A stretch of DNA of 64,000 bases from Candidatus Omnitrophota bacterium (GCA_016932855.1 JAFGCB010000025.1:13868-77867); one strand, 5' to 3'; shown: positions 4,008 to 46,558, numbered from the stretch's first letter. Notes: generated by a model not told the origin, from the sequence alone. Program-made: numbers and translations.

Positions 4008-5891
4008 ATGAATACCAATACACTTAATCTGCTGGAAAACAGGCTTGATTCGGCGAATGTTCAGAAGCTCAAGGCTTTGGAGAATCCTTCTCTTCTTGAT
4101 TTTGTAGCTGATTTTATTGAGCTTTGTAACCCGAAAGAAGTGTTTGTAAGGACTGATTCTTCATCCGACGCAGAGTATATACGGAAAAAAGCCCTTGAGT
4201 TTGGAGAAGAAAGAAAGCTTGGCTTACCCGGCCATAGTCTTCATTTTGACAGTTTTTTTGATCAGGGAAGGGATAAGAAAGCAACTCAGTATCTTCTGCC
4301 TAAAGGAAAGAGTCTAGGTCATTACGGTAACAGCATTGATCGCCAGGGGGGCCTGGAAGAAATTAGGACCCAGCTTAAAGATATCATGAAAGACAAGTTG
4401 ATGTTTATAGCTTTCTTTTGCCTTGGCCCTCTACATTCCGACTTTTCTATTTTAGCGGTTCAGATAACCGATTCTGCCTATGTGGCCCATTCCGAAGATA
4501 TTCTTTACCGGCCGGGATATGAGGAATTTAAGAACAAAAAGAGCCCGTCATTTTTTCGTTTTGTCCATAGCGCCGGAGAATTGGAGAGTAACGTATCGAA
4601 AAACATAGACAGCCGGAGGGTCTACATTGATTTGGAAGAAAGTACGGTTTACAGCGTTAATACCCAGTATGCCGGAAATACCGTCGGTCTTAAGAAGCTT
4701 GCCTTGCGTTTAGCGATAAATAAAGCTTCGAAAGAAGGCTGGCTCGCCGAGCATATGTTTGTAATGGGCATAAACGATGAAGGCGGCAAAAAAGCTTATT
4801 TTTGCGGAGCTTACCCAAGTATGTGCGGGAAGACCTCGACGGCGATGATTCAGGGAGAGTCTATTATTGGCGATGATATCGCTTATCTCTGGGCTAACAA
4901 TGGCAAAGCGGCCGCGGCTAATGTGGAAAGAGGTATTTTTGGTATTATAAAGGATGTTAATTCCAAAGATGACGCGATTTTATTTAAATCCTTAAGTCAG
5001 CCGGGAGAAGTAATCTTTTCTAATATTTTGGTCGATAAGCATCTTAAACCTTACTGGATAGGTAAAGATGCTGAGCTTCCTTCTTCGGGGATCAACTTCG
5101 CCGGAGAGTGGTTTCCCGGAAAAACCGATGAATGCGGAGAAGAAATCCCACCTTCTCACAAAAACGCCCGTTATACCATACGTCTTTCGGCTTTGGAGAA
5201 TGTCGATCCCAAGCTAGAGGATTCTAGGGGGGTTGAGGTAGAAGGCATTATTTACGGCGGTAGAGATTCAGATACTTCATGCCCGGTTGAAGAAGCGTTT
5301 TCCTGGCAGCACGGGATCATCACTAAGGCCGCAATCCTTGAGTCGGAGACTACTGCCGCTACTCTGGGGCAGGAAGGGGTGCGCGTTTTTAATCCTATGT
5401 CCAATATAGACTTTTTATCGATTCCTTTAGGCAAGTATCTGGATATGAATTTAGATTTTGGAAGAAAGGTTGAAAAACCGCCTTTTATTTTTTCAGTAAA
5501 TTATTTTTTGCGGGACAAGCATAAAGGCTTTTTGAACGATATGGAAGATAAGCGGGTCTGGCTTAAATGGATGCGCTTAAGGGTGGATAGAGCAGTTTCT
5601 TCACTGGCGACCCCTACAGGTTTGATTCCCAGGTACGAAGATTTAAAAGCTTTGTTTAAGAAAGTGCTGGGCAAGGATTATTTTAAAAAGGATTATATTG
5701 AGCAGTTTACTCTGCGTGTCCCTGAGAACTTAGCCAAGATAAAGCGGGTAGGAAACATTTACGCCGGGGCGCAGAATATCCCCCAGGTATTATTCGAGGA
5801 GTTAAAAAAGCAAGAGGAAAGGCTTATTGAGTGCCAGAAGAAATTCGGCGATTACGTAAGCCCGGATATGTTTAAGGAGGAGACTGCATGA
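4008..5891 (+). CDS. pckG: Phosphoenolpyruvate carboxykinase (GTP)
   Basis: 627 aa. GTP-PEPCK kinase-1a motif YPSMCGKTSTAM, IGDDIAYLW, and FIAFFCLGPLHSD matching the PEPCK-GTP family. Confidence 0.85.
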   Translation: MNTNTLNLLENRLDSANVQKLKALENPSLLDFVADFIELCNPKEVFVRTDSSSDAEYIRKKALEFGEERKLGLPGHSLHFDSFFDQGRDKKATQYLLPKGKSLGHYGNSIDRQGGLEEIRTQLKDIMKDKLMFIAFFCLGPLHSDFSILAVQITDSAYVAHSEDILYRPGYEEFKNKKSPSFFRFVHSAGELESNVSKNIDSRRVYIDLEESTVYSVNTQYAGNTVGLKKLALRLAINKASKEGWLAEHMFVMGINDEGGKKAYFCGAYPSMCGKTSTAMIQGESIIGDDIAYLWANNGKAAAANVERGIFGIIKDVNSKDDAILFKSLSQPGEVIFSNILVDKHLKPYWIGKDAELPSSGINFAGEWFPGKTDECGEEIPPSHKNARYTIRLSALENVDPKLEDSRGVEVEGIIYGGRDSDTSCPVEEAFSWQHGIITKAAILESETTAATLGQEGVRVFNPMSNIDFLSIPLGKYLDMNLDFGRKVEKPPFIFSVNYFLRDKHKGFLNDMEDKRVWLKWMRLRVDRAVSSLATPTGLIPRYEDLKALFKKVLGKDYFKKDYIEQFTLRVPENLAKIKRVGNIYAGAQNIPQVLFEELKKQEERLIECQKKFGDYVSPDMFKEETA

Positions 5892-6769
5892 TCTTGGATA
5901 AAGCCGAACTTAAGGGTTTTAAGCTGTTTAAAAGAGGTAAAGTACGAGATGTTTATGATTTAGATGATAAGCTTTTAATGATTGCCACCGACAGAATATC
6001 CTGTTTTGACGTGGTCTTGCCTACTCCGATTCCGGAGAAAGGCAAGATCTTAACCCGGATTTCTTTGTTTTGGTTTTCTTTTCTGAAGGATATAGTCGAT
6101 AACCATCTTATTTCCGACAATCTCCAAGATTTGCCCCCAGCTTTTAAGGAATTTAAAGAAACCTTAAGCGGAAGGTTCATGTTGACCAAAAAATGCAAGG
6201 TTATGCCTTTTGAATGCGTGGTAAGAGGCTATCTTTCCGGTTCAGGCTGGAAAGAGTATAAGGCCAGCAATAGTGTTTGCGGTATTAATTTACCCCGGGG
6301 ATTAGTCGAATCATCGAAGCTAAGGGAGCCTATATTTAGTCCGGCCACCAAGGCTGAATCAGGCCACGATGAAAATGTGGATTTTAACTATATGAAAAAT
6401 AAGATAGGAGCAGAGTTTGCCGAGAGAATGAAAAACTTAAGTTTGTCGTTATACGCGAAAGCCTCGGAATTTATAGAGGAAAAAGGAATAATAATCGCTG
6501 ACACCAAGTTTGAGTTTGGCTTCGACGGAGAAGAATTAATCTTAGTCGACGAGGCCCTGACCCCGGATTCTTCTCGTTTCTGGCCGAAAGAGGAATATGC
6601 CCCCGGAGGTCCCCAGGCAAGCTTTGATAAGCAATACGTAAGAGATTATCTTGAATCGTTAGATTGGGACAAGACCCCTCCCGGACCAGTACTGCCCGAT
6701 GAAGTTGTAACTAAAACCAGAGAAAAGTATTTGGCCGCACTTAAAATAGTTACCGGTAAAACCATTTAG
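5888..6769 (+). CDS. purC: Phosphoribosylaminoimidazole-succinocarboxamide synthase (SAICAR synthetase, long form)
   Basis: 293 aa with a RGKVRDVYDLDDKLLMIATDRISCFD N-terminus typical of PurC. Translationally coupled to the pckG stop. Confidence 0.9.
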   Translation: MILDKAELKGFKLFKRGKVRDVYDLDDKLLMIATDRISCFDVVLPTPIPEKGKILTRISLFWFSFLKDIVDNHLISDNLQDLPPAFKEFKETLSGRFMLTKKCKVMPFECVVRGYLSGSGWKEYKASNSVCGINLPRGLVESSKLREPIFSPATKAESGHDENVDFNYMKNKIGAEFAERMKNLSLSLYAKASEFIEEKGIIIADTKFEFGFDGEELILVDEALTPDSSRFWPKEEYAPGGPQASFDKQYVRDYLESLDWDKTPPGPVLPDEVVTKTREKYLAALKIVTGKTI

Positions 6770-11375: not shown

Positions 11376-11561
11376 ATGGTTACGGGTATCGTATTTATTA
11401 TTGCCGGTATTTTAATCGCCATTTTTCCGGAACTTCTTTCTTTGATCGTGTCGGTTTTTCTGGTTACGCTGGGCGTGGGCATAGTGCTTACGAGCTATCA
11501 CCATAAACGTCTATCGCAGCATTTCGACAATCCTTTCGCAGATTTTATTTTTAGATTCTAA
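11376..11561 (+). CDS. Small two-helix membrane protein (61 aa)
   Basis: Strong SD TAAGGAGG. Hydrophobic IVFIIAGILIAIF and LIVSVFLVTLGVGIVL segments. Its stop overlaps the next start (TAATGA). Confidence 0.5.
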   Translation: MVTGIVFIIAGILIAIFPELLSLIVSVFLVTLGVGIVLTSYHHKRLSQHFDNPFADFIFRF

Positions 11562-12586
11562 TGACTGATAAAAAAATTAAACTCGCAAGAATCAGGGAAG
11601 ATAAATTGCTGAACTGCCGGATCTGCGATTTGCCTTTGCAGATAGAGGGGACTTGGATTGAAAGTTGCGTAAACCAGCTCTATAGTGAGCTTGAAGCCAA
11701 GGGCATAAAATTTAAACCTCTCTGCTATTTGGCTGATGAGTGGCTTACGCCTGACAACGAGCCGGTAGTAGGCATAGCTTTTTTCTTAGCTCACCCCCGG
11801 CTTGTGAAGCTAGAAAAGAAAATGATGCTTGAGGTTGAAGGAGGAACAAAGGATTGGTGCATGAAACTTTTGCGTCATGAAAGCGGCCATGCTTTAAATT
11901 ACGCTTTTAAATTATACAAACGCAGAAAATGGCAGGAGATTTTTGGCAGGTTTTCCCAGGAGTACGCTGATACCTACAGGTTTCGGCCTTATAGCAGAAG
12001 TTTTGTAAGACACTTAGAGGATTACTATGCTCAGTATCATCCCGATGAAGATTTTGCCGAGACCTTCGCGGTCTGGCTTGCTCCCAAGTCAAAATGGCCT
12101 AACCAGTATAAAGGCTGGAAAGCCCTCGGAAAGCTTAAGTATGTGGATAAACTCATGTCCGAAATAAGCAACAAAGAGCCGTTTAAGAAAAAAGGGGAAA
12201 AATACTGGTGTATTTCCCGCCTGAAAATAAAGCTAAAGAATTATTACAAAAAAAAGAAGCAATTCTGGGCCGAATATTTTCCTGATTTTCATGATTCTAA
12301 TTTAAAAAGGATATTTGTCGAGAAAGACCAGGAGCATAAAGATCTGCCTTTAGCTTGCGAGATTATAAAAAAGCACAAGAAGAACATATTAAGCAGCATT
12401 TCTACCTGGACCGGGGAACGCAGGTTTATTATCGATGATCTTTTAAGGATTATAATCGATCGCTGCAGAGATTTAAAGCTTGTCGCGGTTGATTTGGAGG
12501 TTCTCGCAGCTATTAAGATTTCGATCTACATTACGACTTTAATTATGAATTATAGCTATACCGGAAGATTCAGGAAGAAGAAATGA
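11561..12586 (+). CDS. Putative zinc metallopeptidase (HExxH; Peptidase_Mx-like family often paired with ATP-grasp enzymes)
   Basis: HESGH at residue ~106 followed by a downstream E (DEDFAETF) consistent with a zincin. Translationally coupled on both sides. Confidence 0.55.
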   Translation: MTDKKIKLARIREDKLLNCRICDLPLQIEGTWIESCVNQLYSELEAKGIKFKPLCYLADEWLTPDNEPVVGIAFFLAHPRLVKLEKKMMLEVEGGTKDWCMKLLRHESGHALNYAFKLYKRRKWQEIFGRFSQEYADTYRFRPYSRSFVRHLEDYYAQYHPDEDFAETFAVWLAPKSKWPNQYKGWKALGKLKYVDKLMSEISNKEPFKKKGEKYWCISRLKIKLKNYYKKKKQFWAEYFPDFHDSNLKRIFVEKDQEHKDLPLACEIIKKHKKNILSSISTWTGERRFIIDDLLRIIIDRCRDLKLVAVDLEVLAAIKISIYITTLIMNYSYTGRFRKKK

Positions 12587-13593
12587 GGAAACTGAAAATT
12601 CTTTTATTATTCGACAGTCCCTACGCCAAGCCCAGAGGCTACGACTTTAAGGAAGAGTTTAAGGATATTGATTGGGCCACCGAAGGCGACGTCCTGCAAG
12701 CCTTAAGAAAAAGAGGCCATGAAGTCAATATTCTAGGTCTTTATAAAGATATTAATCTTCTTTTGGAAGAAGTCAGGGAAAACAAGCCGGATGTCATATT
12801 CAATCTTGTTGAAGTCTTTGACCAGAAGTCCAGTCTTGATAAGAATGTTGTCTATTTACTGGAGCTGTTAGGAGTACCTTTTACAGGAGCCGATCCCGCC
12901 AGTCTTCTTGTCTGCAATAATAAAGCCTTAAGCAAAAAAATATTAAGTTTTCATAGAATAAAAGTCCCCCATTTTTATACTTTTTACAAGAAGCATAAGA
13001 TTTGGCTTCCCAAAAAGCTTAATCCGCCCTTAATAGTTAAACCTTTGTGTGAGGAAGCCTCGCGGGGGATAGCCCAGGCCTCTATAGTTGATAGCGAAGA
13101 GACCTTGGTTGAGAGGGTTAAGTTTATTCACCAGAGTTTGGATATGGACGCTATAGCCGAAGAATATATCGACGGAAGGGAGTTTTACGTAAGTATTCTG
13201 GGAAATAAGCGAATTAAGGTCTTGCCTTTAAGAGAGATGAAGTTCGGCCAGTTTCCCGAGGATGAGCCCAGGATAGCAACCTACAAAGCTAAGTGGGATT
13301 ATAATTATCGCCAGAAGTGGGGTATAAAAAATGTCTTTGCCGGAAGGCTTGCCAACGGCCTGGAGGCAAAGATATCTTATATATGCAAGAGAGCCTACCG
13401 GGCAATAGATATGAAATGCTATGCTCGCTTTGATATAAGAGTTACCGGCGGCGAAGTCTATATCATAGAAGCCAATGCTAACCCGTCGTTGTTTATGTAT
13501 GACGAGGTTGCCCAGTCCGCTGATAAGGCCGGTATTTCTTACGATAAGCTGCTGGAGATGATAATAAGTTTCGCTTTCCAGAGGCAAAAATAA
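12583..13593 (+). CDS. ATP-grasp ligase (D-Ala-D-Ala ligase / RimK-like fold)
   Basis: 336 aa. Pre-ATP-grasp N-domain and a central K-rich ATP-binding region (LIVKPL...EEYIDGREF...IIEANANPS), typical of Ddl/RimK-like ATP-grasp enzymes. Start overlaps the peptidase stop (ATGA). Confidence 0.75.
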   Translation: MRKLKILLLFDSPYAKPRGYDFKEEFKDIDWATEGDVLQALRKRGHEVNILGLYKDINLLLEEVRENKPDVIFNLVEVFDQKSSLDKNVVYLLELLGVPFTGADPASLLVCNNKALSKKILSFHRIKVPHFYTFYKKHKIWLPKKLNPPLIVKPLCEEASRGIAQASIVDSEETLVERVKFIHQSLDMDAIAEEYIDGREFYVSILGNKRIKVLPLREMKFGQFPEDEPRIATYKAKWDYNYRQKWGIKNVFAGRLANGLEAKISYICKRAYRAIDMKCYARFDIRVTGGEVYIIEANANPSLFMYDEVAQSADKAGISYDKLLEMIISFAFQRQK

Positions 13594-13642
13594 ATTCATT
13601 AGCGCTAATTTTATAAATCCGTAATATTTAGGGAGGTAAACC

Positions 13643-15103
13643 ATGAGCGGGATTTTTGGCGTAGTCTCAAAAAATGATTGTTCGCAGGATTTATTCTATG
13701 GGGTAGATTACCATTCGCACTTGGGAACCGAGTACGCCGGCATGGCTGTTTTGGGCGAGGATTTTGTCCGCCAGATACACAGCATACGCCAGGACCAATT
13801 CAAGTCAAAATTTTATGATGATCAGAAGCTCATGAAAGCGCCTAAGGGCATCGGCGTCATAAGCGCTTTTAACGAGCAGCCTATTTACTTAAATTCCAAT
13901 CTCGGGCCTTTCTATATTGTTACTAACGGTTTGGTGGAAAATAAAGAAAAGCTTGCTCAAGGATTATTTGAAAAGGGGGTATCTTTCAGCGAATTCAGCA
14001 AGAAAACAGTTAATACCACAGAGCTTATCGCCAAGCTCATAAGCCAGGAAGAGGATTTGCTAACGGGCATAGAGAAGATGTTCGAGGTAATCGAAGGCTC
14101 GTGTTCGCTGCTGATATTGAATAAGGACGGCATTTACGCAGCCAGAGACAGGTTAGGTTATACTCCTTTGGCCGTAGGAAAAAAGCTTGATTCCTGGGCG
14201 GTGACAACGGAGACCAGCGCTTTTCCTAATCTGGACTTCGAACTGGTAAAGTTTATCGAGCCAGGCGAAGTAGTGCTTTTGACTGAGCAGGGTATCTTTC
14301 AGAGAGCGCAAGGCAGGTCTGCGAATCAAATCTGTTCGTTTCTTTGGATATATACCGGTTTTCCCGCTTCGAGCTACGAAGGCGTTAACGTAGAAACAGT
14401 CCGGGAAAGATGCGGAAGGCTTTTAGCTAAGAGAGACGCCGATATAGAGGTGGATGTCGTAGCTGGCGTCCCGGATTCAGGAACCGCGCACGCCATAGGT
14501 TATGCCATGGAGTCGAAAAAACCCTATCGGCGGCCTTTGGTTAAATATACGCCCGGATACGGAAGAAGCTATACGCCTCCTTCTCAAGAGACCCGGGATT
14601 TAATCGCCAGGATGAAGCTTATTCCCATAAAAGATATCATTGCCGGCAATAGAATAGTAGTCTGCGAGGATTCTATAGTAAGAGGAACGCAGCTTAAGAA
14701 TTTTACTATCCGTAAGCTTTGGGACGCCGGGGCTAAGGAAATCCATGTCAGGCCCGCCTGCCCGCCTTTAATGTTTCCCTGCCGCTTTAATCTTTCTACC
14801 CGAAGTACCCATGAGCTTGCCGCCCGCCGGGCAATTAAGGCTTTGGAAGGCCGGGAAACAGAGGACGTCGGGGAGTATTTAGAGTACGGGTCTAAAAAAT
14901 ATAAGAAGATGGTAGAGTGGATAGCTAAAGATTTAGAAGTAACAACTTTGCGTTATCAAACTGTTGAGGATATGGTAAAGGCAATAGGCTTGCCGAAAGA
15001 AAAGCTTTGTCTATGCTGCTGGCAGGCAGAGGGCCTTAAAGAAAGTAAGGAAAAGAAGTCAGAAAAAAGTACGCAAAATTCATTTCTATATAAAGGCAAA
15101 TGA
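13643..15103 (+). CDS. Amidophosphoribosyltransferase (PurF)-like protein with Ser replacing the N-terminal catalytic Cys
   Basis: N-terminus MSGIFGV where PurF has MCGIVG. Ntn-GATase features (TNG oxyanion motif) and the C-terminal PRTase motif VVCEDSIVRGTQ. An in-frame TAA two codons upstream fixes the start. Confidence 0.7.
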   Translation: MSGIFGVVSKNDCSQDLFYGVDYHSHLGTEYAGMAVLGEDFVRQIHSIRQDQFKSKFYDDQKLMKAPKGIGVISAFNEQPIYLNSNLGPFYIVTNGLVENKEKLAQGLFEKGVSFSEFSKKTVNTTELIAKLISQEEDLLTGIEKMFEVIEGSCSLLILNKDGIYAARDRLGYTPLAVGKKLDSWAVTTETSAFPNLDFELVKFIEPGEVVLLTEQGIFQRAQGRSANQICSFLWIYTGFPASSYEGVNVETVRERCGRLLAKRDADIEVDVVAGVPDSGTAHAIGYAMESKKPYRRPLVKYTPGYGRSYTPPSQETRDLIARMKLIPIKDIIAGNRIVVCEDSIVRGTQLKNFTIRKLWDAGAKEIHVRPACPPLMFPCRFNLSTRSTHELAARRAIKALEGRETEDVGEYLEYGSKKYKKMVEWIAKDLEVTTLRYQTVEDMVKAIGLPKEKLCLCCWQAEGLKESKEKKSEKSTQNSFLYKGK

Positions 15104-16335
15104 ATATTTATCTTGTAGTAATTCTTTGCCTTATAATCGTCGATTGGCTTTTAGAAACATTTGTCGCGGTCCTTAACTTAAGGAATTTATCACCGCAGCT
15201 GCCTCCGGAATTTTCCGGACTCTACGAACCTTCCAGATATAAGAAATCCCAGGAATATTTAAAGGAATCCACCGGGTTTAGTCTTTTTAAAAACGCTGTA
15301 TTTACAGCAGTTGTCGTGATTTTTATTCTGGCCGGCGGATTTAATTTTGTGGATGTCTTTGTGCGGGGCTTTAAGCAGGGTCCGGTTGTCAGCGGTTTAT
15401 TTTTTGCCGCTATCCTGATGCTAGGCTTTCAGTTTTTTAATCTGCCCTTTGCGGCCTACCGGACATTTGTTATTGAGGAAAAGTACGGCTTTAACAAGAC
15501 CACCATAAAGACCTTTATTTTAGACATAATAAAATCCTTGATTTTAGGGGCCTTGATAGCAGGCACCGCATTTTCGGTTGTTCTATGGTTTTTTGGGAAG
15601 GTCGGCAGGCTCGCCTGGATTTACTGCTGGTTGGTTATCGCCGGATTCGAGCTTTTTCTGGTATTTGTTGCGCCGGTGGTTATTTTACCTCTTTTTAACA
15701 AATTTATTCCTCTTGAAGAAGGCCCGCTTAAGACGGCTATCGAAGAATATGCCAGAAGAGAAAAATTCGCTTTAGGCGGAATCTTTAAAATGGACGCCTC
15801 CCGGCGCTCCGCTAAATCCAACGCTTTTTTTACCGGTTTCGGGAGATACCGAAGAATTGCTTTATTCGATACCCTTATCGAAAAGCACGCGCCCGATGAG
15901 CTTGTAAGCGTTATTGCCCATGAGGTGGGTCACTACAAGAAAAAACATATTATTAAAGGCATAGCTTTATCGATTCTTACCAGCGGATTTATGTTTTTCC
16001 TGCTTTCGTTCTTTATTGAAAACCCGGGATTATTCAAAGCTTTTAAGATGGAAAATCTTTCCATTTATGCCAGCCTGTTCTTTTTCACCTTTTTATACTC
16101 ACCGATTAATCTTATTTTATCGATTTTCGGAAATTCTCTTTCAAGGAAGCACGAGTACGAAGCGGATAGTTTTGCGGTCAAAACCCATAATAAGCCGGAA
16201 GATTTCATAAGAGCTTTAAAGAAGTTGAGCGTGGATAATTTATCAAATCTTAATCCCCACCCTTTAAAGGTATTCTTGCACTACAGTCATCCCCCGGTGC
16301 TTAAGCGAATACAGGCTATAAGGAAAATCAACTAA
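15100..16335 (+). CDS. Ste24-type CAAX prenyl protease / M48A zinc metalloprotease
   Basis: Multi-TM N-terminus, HEVGHYKKKH zinc motif and 411 aa length. Confidence 0.8.
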   Translation: MNIYLVVILCLIIVDWLLETFVAVLNLRNLSPQLPPEFSGLYEPSRYKKSQEYLKESTGFSLFKNAVFTAVVVIFILAGGFNFVDVFVRGFKQGPVVSGLFFAAILMLGFQFFNLPFAAYRTFVIEEKYGFNKTTIKTFILDIIKSLILGALIAGTAFSVVLWFFGKVGRLAWIYCWLVIAGFELFLVFVAPVVILPLFNKFIPLEEGPLKTAIEEYARREKFALGGIFKMDASRRSAKSNAFFTGFGRYRRIALFDTLIEKHAPDELVSVIAHEVGHYKKKHIIKGIALSILTSGFMFFLLSFFIENPGLFKAFKMENLSIYASLFFFTFLYSPINLILSIFGNSLSRKHEYEADSFAVKTHNKPEDFIRALKKLSVDNLSNLNPHPLKVFLHYSHPPVLKRIQAIRKIN

Positions 16336-25564: not shown

Positions 25565-25640
25565 TCGGGAGGTGGCGCAGTCTGGATTAGCGCACTTGAA
25601 TGGGGTTCAAGGGGTCGTGGGTTCGAATCCCACCCTCCCG
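25565..25640 (+). tRNA. tRNA-Pro (anticodon GGG)
   Basis: Manual fold: acceptor CGGGAGG/CCTCCCG, D-stem GCGC, anticodon stem CTTGA/TCAAG with loop ATGGGGT (U33, GGG, G37), T-arm GTGGG TTCGAAT CCCAC, discriminator A. CCA is not encoded. Confidence 0.8.
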
Positions 25641-25726
25641 ACATAGAAAATAAATATTAAAAATCAAAAATCAAAAACTGATTTTTGAGTTTGTCCTTTA
25701 AGGGACATAGCGCAAGGGAGGTTGTT

Positions 25727-45397: not shown

Positions 45398-46558
45398 ATG
45401 GCGGAGTGGATAGGTAAAGGCAGACGCGCGCGACGTTGTTATGGATTTGACGAGATAGCTTTAGTTCCCGGGAAAATAACCATAAACCCTGAGGAGGTTG
45501 AGACTTCCTGGCAGTTCGCCGGCAAAAAGTTTGCAGTGCCAATAATCGCAGCGGCAATGGACGGCGTGGTAGATGTCGAGTTTGCAGCGGAAATGTCGCG
45601 GTTAGGGGGGATGGCTATTCTAAATCTGGACGGAGTCCAAACCCGATATGATAATCCCGAGGAAGTGTTAGGGCAAATTATTAAAGCCTCGCCTGAGGAG
45701 GCTACTAACTTGATTCAAAAAATATATACTGCCCCGATAAAAGAGAAGTTGATCTCTAAAAGGATTTCCCAAATTAAAGAAAAAAACGGATTTACCTGTG
45801 TCAGCTGCATTCCCCAGAATGCCCAGAGGTTTGGAGAAATCAGCCAGGAGGCCGGGGTGGATGTTTTTGTTGTTCAATCCACGGTAACCACCAAGACGCA
45901 TATCGCAAAACAATATAAGCCCTTAGACCTTTCAAAATTATGCAGAGAAATGAAAGCCCCGGTAATAATCGGTAATTGCGTAACCTTCGAGGTCACTTTA
46001 GAATTATTGGAGACGGGCTGTGCCGGTGTTTTAATCGGTGTAGGGCCGGGCGCGTCATGTACTACCAGGGGTGTGTTGGGTGTTGGAGTTCCTCAGGTTA
46101 CCGCTACGATTGATTGTTCGGCGGCAAGGGATATTTTTTATAGAAAGACAGGCAAGTACATACCCATTATCACTGACGGCGGCATGCGTACCGGGGGAGA
46201 TGTTTGTAAAGCTTTTGCCTGCGGAGCAGACGCGGTCATGATCGGTTCCAGCCTTGCCAGAGCCAAAGAAGCTCCAGCCAGCGGCTTTCACTGGGGCATG
46301 GCTACTTCGCATTCTAATTTGCCTCGGGGAACAAGAATAAACGTAGGGATTTCCGGTACCCTGGAGCAGATACTTTTTGGTCCAGCCCAGGTCGACGACG
46401 GCTCCCAGAACTTAATGGGAGCTTTAGCCACTTCTATGGGGTGTTTGGGCGTGCGAACGATAAAAGAAATGCATTTTGCCGAAATAATACTTGCTCCTTC
46501 GATACAAACAGAGGGAAAGATATTTCAAGTTGTTCAAAGAGTGGGAATGGGCAAATAA
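45398..46558 (+). CDS. IMP dehydrogenase / GMP reductase family protein lacking the CBS subdomain
   Basis: Catalytic-loop GVGPGASCTTR and 386 aa length. Resembles the CBS-less GuaB-related paralogs. Confidence 0.65.
   Translation: MAEWIGKGRRARRCYGFDEIALVPGKITINPEEVETSWQFAGKKFAVPIIAAAMDGVVDVEFAAEMSRLGGMAILNLDGVQTRYDNPEEVLGQIIKASPEEATNLIQKIYTAPIKEKLISKRISQIKEKNGFTCVSCIPQNAQRFGEISQEAGVDVFVVQSTVTTKTHIAKQYKPLDLSKLCREMKAPVIIGNCVTFEVTLELLETGCAGVLIGVGPGASCTTRGVLGVGVPQVTATIDCSAARDIFYRKTGKYIPIITDGGMRTGGDVCKAFACGADAVMIGSSLARAKEAPASGFHWGMATSHSNLPRGTRINVGISGTLEQILFGPAQVDDGSQNLMGALATSMGCLGVRTIKEMHFAEIILAPSIQTEGKIFQVVQRVGMGK

What the first reader, a model, noticed from the sequence alone, without database searches (positions are those of the whole stretch)
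13643..15103. PurF homolog whose nucleophilic Cys1 is replaced by Ser
Domain order and motifs match glutamine PRPP amidotransferase (TNG oxyanion loop, FLWIYTGFP, VVCEDSIVRGTQ PRPP loop). The mature N-terminus reads SGIFG rather than CGIVG, and an in-frame stop two codons upstream excludes a longer N-terminus. Class II Ntn amidotransferases need Cys1 for glutamine hydrolysis. This protein could be ammonia-dependent only, could use a Ser nucleophile, or could be a regulatory or neofunctionalised paralog. purC is in the window but no canonical purF is.
Basis: partly seen in the sequence, partly recalled or inferred. Interest (0 to 1): 0.55.

Follow-up and report, generated by a model that had tools for sequence, protein, structure and literature searches.

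The report
Cysteine-less PurF paralogue, glutaminase-dead
This Omnitrophota gene encodes a well-conserved relative of PurF, the first enzyme of purine synthesis, that has lost the parts needed to use glutamine but kept the sugar-phosphate transfer site; it probably makes the same product from free ammonia, and this has never been tested.

Summary
ORF 13643-15103 (+) encodes a 486-aa two-domain PurF homologue that starts MSGIFG, with TAA two codons upstream.

Ser is not a sequencing error. 118 of the 120 closest homologues have it, and 81 independent loci encode it with AGC or AGT.

The loss goes beyond Cys1. The other residues of the PurF glutamine site are also gone: Arg26 is Leu, the Arg73 loop is deleted, and the Asp127 position is variable. 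The oxyanion Asn is replaced in 17 of 120 close relatives. Deeper relatives, including Bacteroides and archaeal proteins, carry Gly, Thr or Ala at the Cys1 position. A Ser nucleophile is therefore unlikely.

The PRPP loop, the flexible loop and the four Fe-S cysteines are conserved as in true PurF. The predicted fold matches B. subtilis PurF (TM 0.80-0.85).

In a Planctomycetota subclade (about 72% identical) the gene lies in a purF-purM-purF' operon next to a genuine Cys-type purF. There it is a paralogue linked to purine synthesis.

Best reading: an ammonia-dependent phosphoribosylamine synthase with a dead glutaminase domain, analogous to CPS1 and to the untested crenarchaeal PurF'.

I could not determine whether this genome also has a canonical purF. 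Interest is moderate.

The parts
13630..13636 (+). Ribosome-binding site AGGGAGG, 6 nt before the ATG
   Evidence: Read directly from the sequence.
13637..13639 (+). In-frame TAA stop two codons upstream of the start; it rules out a longer N-terminus or a propeptide carrying Cys
13643..15103 (+). Complete ORF (486 aa plus stop) of the Cys-less PurF paralogue
   Evidence: ORF. (E = 1e-54 to B. subtilis PurF). (100% identical protein P0001, named amidophosphoribosyltransferase, Candidatus Omnitrophica MAG).
13646..13648 (+). Codon AGC = Ser2, at the position of the Cys1 nucleophile
   Evidence: Aligns with Cys1 of 1ao0. Ser in 118 of 120 homologues. AGC or AGT in 81 loci.
13646..14317 (+). N-terminal Ntn-type (class II glutamine amidotransferase-like) domain, residues 2-225. 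The glutamine site is dismantled: L27 replaces Arg26, the Arg73 loop is deleted and T125 replaces Asp127. It contains the subfamily-invariant motif DYHSHLGT (nt 13706-13729).
   Evidence: Pfam GATase_7, E = 5e-13. Residue mapping. Mean conservation 84% among 120 homologues. In the AF2 model a strand starts at residue 2.
14318..14842 (+). Type I phosphoribosyltransferase domain, residues 226-400. It holds the GVPDSG loop (14465-14482), the flexible loop (14537-14620) and the PRPP loop IVVCEDSIVRGTQ (14654-14692).
   Evidence: These residues are conserved across the whole Cys-less clade, identical to canonical PurF. Mean conservation is 91%.
14333..14335 (+). Cys231, aligned with Fe-S ligand Cys236 of B. 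subtilis PurF
   Evidence: 120 of 120 conserved.
14780..14782 (+). Cys380, aligned with Fe-S ligand Cys382 of B. subtilis PurF
15008..15019 (+). Cys456-x-x-Cys459, at the position of Fe-S ligands Cys437 and Cys440 of B. subtilis PurF
   Evidence: both 120 of 120. (88-90% across the clade, 92% in canonical). The correspondence to Cys437/Cys440 is inferred from the alignment offset.
15038..15100 (+). Poorly conserved Lys/Ser-rich C-terminal tail, residues 466-486
   Evidence: Conservation 29%. pLDDT below 50.
5888..6769 (+). purC (SAICAR synthetase), 7 kb upstream. It shows that the genome encodes at least part of de novo purine synthesis.
   Evidence: Pfam SAICAR_synt, E = 1.6e-74.

Best explanation
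The gene encodes a glutaminase-dead paralogue of glutamine-PRPP amidotransferase (PurF).

The N-terminal Ntn domain is kept as a folded module under selection, but it can no longer bind or hydrolyse glutamine. The phosphoribosyltransferase site, the flexible loop that closes over PRPP, and the [4Fe-4S] ligands are all kept.

The most likely activity is the second half-reaction of PurF alone: free NH3 + PRPP gives 5-phosphoribosylamine + PPi. This feeds purine synthesis without spending glutamine. In genomes that also have a Cys-type PurF it would act as an ammonia-dependent isozyme.

Shown: loss of the glutamine site, retention of the PRTase site, clade-wide conservation, and operon linkage to purF and purM in close relatives. 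Inferred: the product (phosphoribosylamine) and the nitrogen donor (free ammonia).
For: (1) Glutamine site. Ser2 replaces Cys1, Leu27 replaces Arg26, the Arg73-Tyr74-x-Thr76 loop is deleted, and Asp127 is a variable V/T/A position.

(2) The same losses occur across the whole clade, where position 2 is S, G, T or A.

(3) PRTase and loop residues are 85-100% conserved across the clade, nearly all of them 90% or more, and identical to canonical PurF. They are C231, R254, D278-S-G, K301, R308, Q315, R318, K325, D343-S, V-R-G-T and C380. C456 and C459 are kept in 88-90% of the clade.

(4) The whole-chain fold matches B. subtilis PurF: TM 0.80/0.85, model pLDDT 85.

(5) Purifying selection is strong: 72-79% identity over 120 homologues. 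The N domain is 84% conserved and the PRTase domain 91%.

(6) In 12 Planctomycetota loci, whose proteins are about 72% identical to this one, purM lies directly upstream of the gene. In 11 of them a canonical purF precedes purM, giving the order purF - purM - this gene. There the first copy passes TIGR01134 (502 bits against a cut-off of 350), purM scores 428, and this type scores 204. Other loci have carAB upstream. purC is nearby in the window.

(7) Published biochemistry, cited in PMC3261824: E. coli PurF C1S and C1A mutants lose glutamine-dependent activity but keep NH3-dependent activity.

(8) Precedent: human CPS1 has a Cys-to-Ser dead glutaminase domain and uses free ammonia (PMC4655335).
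Against: No activity has been measured for any member of this clade.

A purely vestigial N domain would be expected to drift or be lost. Here it is strongly conserved, with a subfamily-invariant DYHSHLGT motif, which hints at a function beyond scaffolding.

Outside the one Planctomycetota subclade, gene neighbourhoods are unrelated to purine metabolism.

Why a cell with a working PurF would keep an NH3-dependent copy is unexplained. I could not establish whether the window's genome has a canonical purF.
Confidence: 0.5

Rival explanations
1. Neofunctionalised phosphoribosyltransferase. The remodelled N-domain pocket binds a new ligand, either a different nitrogen donor or acceptor or an allosteric effector, and the enzyme makes something other than plain NH3-derived phosphoribosylamine. 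This would parallel beta-lactam synthetase, an AsnB homologue without Cys1 (from my own knowledge, not checked here).
For: The N domain is almost as conserved as the catalytic domain (84% against 91%). Pocket-region residues D22, Y23, S74 and N124 are specific to the clade and conserved in 85-98% of it. DYHSHLGT is invariant in the subfamily. Most neighbourhoods are not purine-related. A different Cys-less PurF-like clade occurs on a bacterial contig whose cluster-mates are labelled Patescibacteria.
Against: The PRPP site and the flexible loop are unchanged from canonical PurF. In PurF these enclose PRPP and leave room only for NH3, which argues against a bulky new acceptor (the enclosure is structural knowledge, not tested here). 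Where linkage exists, it is to purF, purM, purC and carAB. H24 of the motif is not conserved clade-wide.
Confidence: 0.2
2. Non-catalytic regulatory or structural paralogue. It would form mixed oligomers with canonical PurF, or act as a PRPP or nucleotide sensor.
For: It sits in one operon with a genuine purF in 11 loci. PurF enzymes are oligomers with inter-subunit nucleotide sites (the 1ao0 and 1ecb titles show nucleotide complexes). Dead-domain paralogues often regulate their active relatives.
Against: Every PRTase catalytic motif is conserved across a deep clade, which is unusual for a pseudoenzyme. Most loci show no nearby purF. The gene is kept in a 1.14-Mb Omnitrophota chromosome (L021), where dispensable partners are less likely to survive.
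Confidence: 0.15
3. A functional glutamine amidotransferase that uses the N-terminal Ser as the Ntn nucleophile, as penicillin acylase does.
For: Ser is 98% conserved in the subfamily. It would be exposed by Met removal (general rule for small second residues). N95-G96 is present in this protein.
Against: The glutamine-binding residues Arg26, Arg73 and Asp127 are absent. N95 is replaced by S, D, C, A or Y in 17 of 120 close homologues that still have Ser2. Deeper clade members have Gly, Ala or Thr at this position. The E. coli C1S mutant has no glutamine-dependent activity (PMC3261824).
Confidence: 0.05
4. Artefact: a sequencing error (TGC read as AGC) or a decaying pseudogene.
For: AGC is one substitution away from TGC.
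Against: Ser occurs in 118 of 120 homologues and in 81 independent assemblies, with both AGC and AGT. The ORF is intact, has a strong RBS, and is 72-79% identical to homologues over its full length.
Confidence: 0.01

Closest known systems
Glutamine PRPP amidotransferase PurF, B. subtilis [4Fe-4S] type (PDB 1ao0, 1gph; TIGR01134)
   Same: Same two-domain architecture and fold (TM 0.80-0.85). The PRPP loop, the flexible loop and the four Fe-S cysteines are the same. About 29% identity.
   Different: It has no Cys1 and none of Arg26, the Arg73 loop or Asp127. It scores 223 bits against the curated cut-off of 350. It forms a separate monophyletic clade in which no member has Cys.
PurF' of Crenarchaeota (Brown et al. 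2011, Biol Direct 6:63; PMC3261824)
   Same: A PurF paralogue without the N-terminal Cys, encoded near a genuine purF and other pur genes. It is proposed, but untested, to be an ammonia-dependent PRPP aminotransferase. In Planctomycetota relatives of the window protein the arrangement is the same.
   Different: PurF' was described only for Crenarchaeota and often has Ala or Val. I could not obtain PurF' sequences, so whether it belongs to the same clade is untested. The clade here is mainly bacterial (Omnitrophota, Planctomycetota, Bacteroides) with some archaeal members.
E. coli PurF C1S and C1A mutants (Mei & Zalkin 1989, as cited in PMC3261824)
   Same: The same single change at the nucleophile. 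The mutants keep NH3-dependent phosphoribosylamine synthesis and lose the glutamine-dependent reaction.
   Different: These are laboratory point mutants with an otherwise intact glutamine site. The natural protein has lost the whole site.
Carbamoyl phosphate synthetase 1 (CPS1)
   Same: An ancestral glutaminase domain is retained but inactive because of a Cys-to-Ser change. The enzyme takes free ammonia, and the dead domain is kept as part of the architecture (PMC4655335).
   Different: It has an unrelated fold (class I triad amidotransferase) and different chemistry. This is an analogy of evolutionary logic only.

Membership tests
PurF, glutamine PRPP amidotransferase (EC 2.4.2.14; TIGR01134 equivalog) | N-terminal Cys nucleophile (Cys1 after Met or propeptide removal) | tested here: not met
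   Ser2 aligns with Cys1. A stop two codons upstream excludes a propeptide. Cys13 is not in a CG[IV]xG context.
PurF, glutamine PRPP amidotransferase (EC 2.4.2.14; TIGR01134 equivalog) | Glutamine-binding residues Arg26, Arg73 (with Tyr74 and Thr76) and Asp127 | tested here: not met
   Arg26 is Leu27, the Arg73 loop is deleted, and Asp127 is T125 at a variable position.
PurF, glutamine PRPP amidotransferase (EC 2.4.2.14; TIGR01134 equivalog) | Oxyanion-hole Asn-Gly | tested here: inconclusive
   N95-G96 is present in this protein. However, the Asn is replaced in 17 of 120 close homologues and is not conserved across the clade.
PurF, glutamine PRPP amidotransferase (EC 2.4.2.14; TIGR01134 equivalog) | Type I PRTase PRPP-binding loop, PPi loop and flexible loop | tested here: met
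   GVPDSG, K301...GRS...Q315..R318...K325 and EDSIVRGT are present and conserved clade-wide.
PurF, glutamine PRPP amidotransferase (EC 2.4.2.14; TIGR01134 equivalog) | Score at or above the curated family cut-off | tested here: not met
   223.1 bits against 350. The genuine purF in L040 scores 501.9.
PurF, glutamine PRPP amidotransferase (EC 2.4.2.14; TIGR01134 equivalog) | Two-domain Ntn + PRTase fold | tested here: met
   AF2 pLDDT 85.2. Foldseek TM 0.80/0.85 to 1ao0_A over the whole chain.
PurF, glutamine PRPP amidotransferase (EC 2.4.2.14; TIGR01134 equivalog) | Formation of 5-phosphoribosylamine from PRPP | not testable with these tools
   Needs an enzyme assay or complementation.
B. subtilis-type [4Fe-4S] PurF subgroup | Four Cys ligands (Cys236, Cys382, Cys437, Cys440) | tested here: met
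   C231, C380, C456 and C459 align with them and are conserved. Cluster binding itself is not testable here.
Cys-less PurF paralogues (PurF' sensu Brown et al. 2011) | PurF homologue lacking the N-terminal Cys | tested here: met
Cys-less PurF paralogues (PurF' sensu Brown et al. 2011) | Coexists and clusters with a genuine purF and other pur genes | tested here: inconclusive
   Met in 11-12 Planctomycetota loci. Not seen in the window or in Omnitrophota loci. The rest of this genome could not be searched.
Cys-less PurF paralogues (PurF' sensu Brown et al. 2011) | Same phylogenetic clade as the crenarchaeal PurF' proteins | not tested
   No PurF' sequences were available. At least three separate Cys-less clades exist in the representative set.
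Ntn hydrolases with a Ser nucleophile | Nucleophile and oxyanion hole conserved throughout the family | tested here: not met
   Position 2 is S, G, T or A across the clade, and the oxyanion Asn is variable.

The most novel reading that the evidence does not exclude
In Omnitrophota, possibly including the 1.1-Mb reduced genomes, this protein is the only PurF-family enzyme and the sole entry into purine synthesis. It would be a naturally glutamine-independent PurF. The former glutamine pocket (D22, Y23, S74, N124, plus His24 and His26 in this subfamily) would have been rebuilt into an ammonium-capture site that feeds NH3 through the ancestral interdomain channel, giving a far lower Km for ammonia than canonical PurF has.
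Probability: 0.15. Interest if true: 0.7.

Novelty: new variant of a known kind. Interest (0 to 1): 0.45.

Why it matters
Databases name these proteins 'amidophosphoribosyltransferase' as though they were ordinary PurF. The family cannot use glutamine by the known mechanism. It is very large, with close relatives in at least 529 species genomes, and it reaches into human-gut Bacteroides and into archaea.

If it is an ammonia-dependent PRA synthase, three things follow:
- Purine synthesis in many anaerobes has a glutamine-independent entry step that saves ATP.
- Metabolic reconstructions that count it as purF hide whether a genome has one or two routes.
- It gives a natural, class II counterpart of the CPS1 story (a dead glutaminase domain retained), which would be useful for studying how ammonia channels are reused.

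If it does something else, a widespread PRPP-dependent reaction is still unknown.

Tried and rejected
1. Sequencing error or pseudogene: rejected.

2. A hidden Cys nucleophile from an upstream start or a propeptide: rejected. There is a stop at 13637-13639, and Cys13 is not in a nucleophile motif.

3. A canonical purF elsewhere in the window: none.

4. A canonical purF in Omnitrophota genomes. My third homologue search, seeded with the Planctomycetota purF, returned only Planctomycetota proteins. The question stays unresolved.

5. A riboswitch or RNA element upstream, in the window, a Bacteroides locus and two other loci: none found. Promoter and terminator scans were at chance level.

6. A conserved neighbourhood across the family. 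Apart from purF-purM in one subclade, DUF1846 in 8-10 Omnitrophota loci and RluA, the neighbours are scattered. Distant members gave unrelated contexts.

7. Literature on a bacterial Cys-less PurF (terms: PurF-like, purF2, Bacteroides purF, Omnitrophota purine): nothing found except the crenarchaeal PurF' note.

8. Taxon names for the representative sequences: almost none on record.

9. The afdb50 fold library was not available.

10. The idea of a twin-His ammonium site was weakened, because His24 is not conserved clade-wide.

Full report
**1. The observation**

The window has an ORF at 13643..15103 (+) of 486 aa that starts MSGIFGVVSKNDC. AGGGAGG lies at 13630-13636. An in-frame TAA at 13637-13639 is separated from the ATG by one codon. 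No longer N-terminus or Cys-bearing propeptide is possible.

phmmer against PDB sequences gives B. subtilis PurF (1ao0) at E = 1.2e-54 over residues 3-394. Ser2 falls on Cys1. Pfam sees only GATase_7. NCBIfam TIGR01134 (purF equivalog) scores 223 bits, well below its curated cut-off of 350. The quoted motifs (VTNG, CSFLWIYTGFP, IVVCEDSIVRGTQ) are all there.

purC is at 5888-6769. A genuine purF used as a tblastn query hits nothing else in the 64 kb.

**2. Not an error, and not a one-off**

An identical protein (P0001) is on record from a Candidatus Omnitrophica MAG. The 120 best homologues are 72-79% identical over 95-100% of the query, and 118 of them have Ser at position 2, the other two Asn.

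A scan of one genome per GTDB species found at least 529 genomes with a relative. The best 80 are Omnitrophota, Planctomycetota (Phycisphaerae, Sedimentisphaerales) and a few other MAGs. In 81 of these loci the Ser codon is AGC (60) or AGT (21). Each is one step from a Cys codon, but both synonymous forms occur.

**3. The glutamine site is gone as a whole**

I mapped the residues known from E. coli and B. subtilis PurF onto the protein (established structural knowledge; alignment):

| Canonical residue | In this protein |
|---|---|
| Cys1 | Ser2 |
| Arg26 | Leu27 (117 L, 3 M among close homologues) |
| Arg73-Tyr74-x-Thr76 loop | deleted |
| Asp127 | T125, a position that is V/T/A among close homologues |
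| Oxyanion Asn | N95 here, but S/D/C/A/Y in 17 of 120 close homologues that keep Ser2 |

An exhaustive search of 50%-identity representatives found 970 clusters at E < 1e-30. The relatives down to about 40% identity start M[S/G/T/A]G[FIL]FG...GTDYHSHLGT.

In a neighbour-joining tree these form one clade, separate from canonical PurF and from at least two other Cys-less or atypical clades. No member of the clade has Cys.

The clade includes the 470-aa 'amidophosphoribosyltransferase' of Bacteroides (MGGFFG..., 46% identity). It also includes proteins on archaeal contigs (52% and 50% identity). Because Gly and Ala occupy the nucleophile position in these relatives, a Ser nucleophile is an unlikely explanation for the family.

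**4. What is kept**

Across the whole clade the PRTase-domain residues are 85-100% conserved, nearly all of them 90% or more, and identical to canonical PurF. They are C231, F233, Y237, R254, D278-S-G, K301, R308, Q315, R318, K325, D343-S, V-R-G-T, H368, P374-P and C380. C456 and C459 are kept in 88-90% of the clade. They include the flexible loop that in PurF closes over PRPP, and the four Cys that align with the [4Fe-4S] ligands of the B. subtilis enzyme.

Among the 120 close homologues, mean conservation is 84% for the N domain and 91% for the PRTase domain. Only the last 21 residues are free to vary.

The N domain is therefore not decaying. It keeps structural glycines plus the clade-specific D22, Y23, S74 and N124, and in this subfamily an invariant DYHSHLGT.

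An AlphaFold2 model (pLDDT 85.2, pTM 0.85) starts its first strand at residue 2, as Ntn folds do. Confidence is low only in the flexible loop and the tail. Foldseek places the whole chain on B. subtilis PurF (TM 0.80/0.85), then on the plant and E. coli enzymes. GlmS matches only the N domain.

**5. Genomic context**

In the window the gene follows a Peptidase_Mx-like gene and an ATP-grasp gene. It overlaps the start of an M48 peptidase gene by 4 nt. Promoter and terminator scans are at chance level, and no Rfam element lies upstream.

I called ORFs in 83 loci and clustered them. In 12 loci that form one Planctomycetota subclade of the protein tree, purM lies directly upstream of this gene. 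In 11 of them a second PurF-family gene lies two to three genes upstream, preceded in 8 by a thioesterase gene. A membrane-protein gene follows this gene in 11 of the 12.

The resulting order is thioesterase - purF - purM - this gene - membrane protein. The upstream copy has a propeptide ending ...KKENCGLFGIFG and the motif LQHRGQESAG. It passes TIGR01134 (501.9 bits), and purM scores 428. The Ser-type copy in the same operon scores 203.6. It is 29% identical to its neighbour and 72% identical to the window protein.

In these organisms the Ser-type protein therefore coexists with a true PurF and is co-located with purine genes. Elsewhere I saw carA-carB directly upstream. DUF1846 is upstream in 8-10 Omnitrophota loci and RluA in about 8. 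More distant members have unrelated neighbours.

Whether the window's own genome has a canonical purF remains open. The remaining homologue search, seeded with the Planctomycetota purF, returned only Planctomycetota sequences.

**6. Mechanism**

The simplest reading is a PurF that has given up its glutaminase half-reaction and carries out only PRPP + NH3 giving phosphoribosylamine + PPi. The support is as follows:
- The PRTase site and the closing loop are unchanged. In canonical PurF these leave room only for ammonia (structural knowledge).
- E. coli PurF C1S and C1A mutants lose glutamine-dependent activity but keep ammonia-dependent activity (Mei & Zalkin 1989, as summarised in PMC3261824).
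- The gene is linked to purF and purM.
- The hosts come from ammonia-rich, energy-limited anoxic habitats, where avoiding the ATP cost of glutamine would pay (inference).

Human CPS1 is an exact evolutionary parallel. Its ancestral glutaminase domain is retained but dead because of a Cys-to-Ser change, and the enzyme takes free ammonia (PMC4655335).

The main weakness is that the N domain is conserved more strongly than a mere scaffold would need. This leaves room for a new ligand-binding role, either a new donor or acceptor or an allosteric effector. It also leaves room for a partner or regulatory role with canonical PurF. I rate these readings at 0.5 (NH3-dependent PRA synthase), 0.2, 0.15, 0.05 (Ser-nucleophile glutaminase) and 0.01 (artefact).

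**7. Comparison with what is known**

The protein works like PurF, but it fails three defining tests for membership of the glutamine-dependent PurF equivalog: Cys1, the glutamine-binding residues and the curated score.

The closest described concept is PurF' of Crenarchaeota. These are Cys-less paralogues next to purF, proposed but never shown to be ammonia-dependent (PMC3261824). I could not test whether PurF' belongs to the same clade.

I found no paper on the bacterial family. I found no solved structure other than canonical PurFs.

**8. Verdict**

This is a real, conserved and widespread variant of a known enzyme kind, mis-named by annotation and biochemically untested. It is not a singular anomaly of this genome, and its general idea has been anticipated in archaea. 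I therefore score interest as moderate (0.45) and novelty as a new variant of a known kind.

Noticed in passing
L040 572-5134; also L016, L020, L025, L033, L035, L064, L065, L077, L083, L009: A conserved Planctomycetota operon: YbgC-like thioesterase - canonical purF (with propeptide) - purM - Cys-less purF paralogue - uncharacterised polytopic membrane protein of about 345 aa with no Pfam or NCBIfam hit.
   Followed up: partly
L002 8411-9925, and 8-9 further Omnitrophota loci (e.g. L048, L050, L051, L056, L057): A DUF1846 (UPF0371) gene of about 505 aa lies directly upstream of the Cys-less purF paralogue, on the same strand, in 8-10 loci. The function of DUF1846 is unknown.
   Followed up: no
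L090 1299-6297 and L092 2991-9386: Two archaeal contigs carry clade members (52% and 50% identity) immediately downstream of the DNA polymerase D large subunit (DP2) gene. In both, a TctA gene follows on the opposite strand.
   Followed up: no
L095 3607-5007 and L096 3626-5026: A different Cys-less PurF-like clade (MAGLFGLS...) lies on a bacterial contig among translation genes (L20, IF3, SmpB). A member of a related cluster is labelled Patescibacteria, a group that usually lacks de novo purine synthesis. This suggests that some Cys-less PurF-like proteins have non-purine roles.
   Followed up: no
L087 9374-13899 (Bacteroides): The Bacteroides homologue has an unusually long upstream intergenic region of about 630 bp with no Rfam match. 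A peptidase M20 gene and gcvT (glycine cleavage T protein, part of an ammonia-releasing system) follow it.
   Followed up: partly
window 11561-16335: Four tightly packed same-strand genes: a Peptidase_Mx-like gene (weak hit), a D-Ala-D-Ala-ligase-like ATP-grasp gene (4-nt overlap with the previous gene), the purF paralogue, and a Ste24-type M48 peptidase gene (4-nt ATGA overlap). This is probably one transcription unit. The pairing is not conserved in other loci.
   Followed up: partly
window 4008-6769: The GTP-type PEP carboxykinase gene overlaps the start of purC by 4 nt. This is an unusual pairing of a gluconeogenic gene and a purine gene.
   Followed up: no
window 45398-46558: An IMPDH/GMP-reductase-family protein of only 386 aa, short enough that the usual CBS insert is probably absent. 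No CBS hit appeared in Pfam at E <= 1e-5.
   Followed up: no
window 25566-25641: A single tRNA gene on the + strand (Rfam RF00005, 59.8 bits). Small minus-strand ORFs listed across it are probably spurious.
   Followed up: no
PMC3261824 (Methanocorpusculum labreanum Mlab_0150): The paper reports a Ser-for-Cys PurF copy in a methanogen and calls it a recent duplication. Given the archaeal members of the clade found here, it might instead belong to this old Cys-less family.
   Followed up: no
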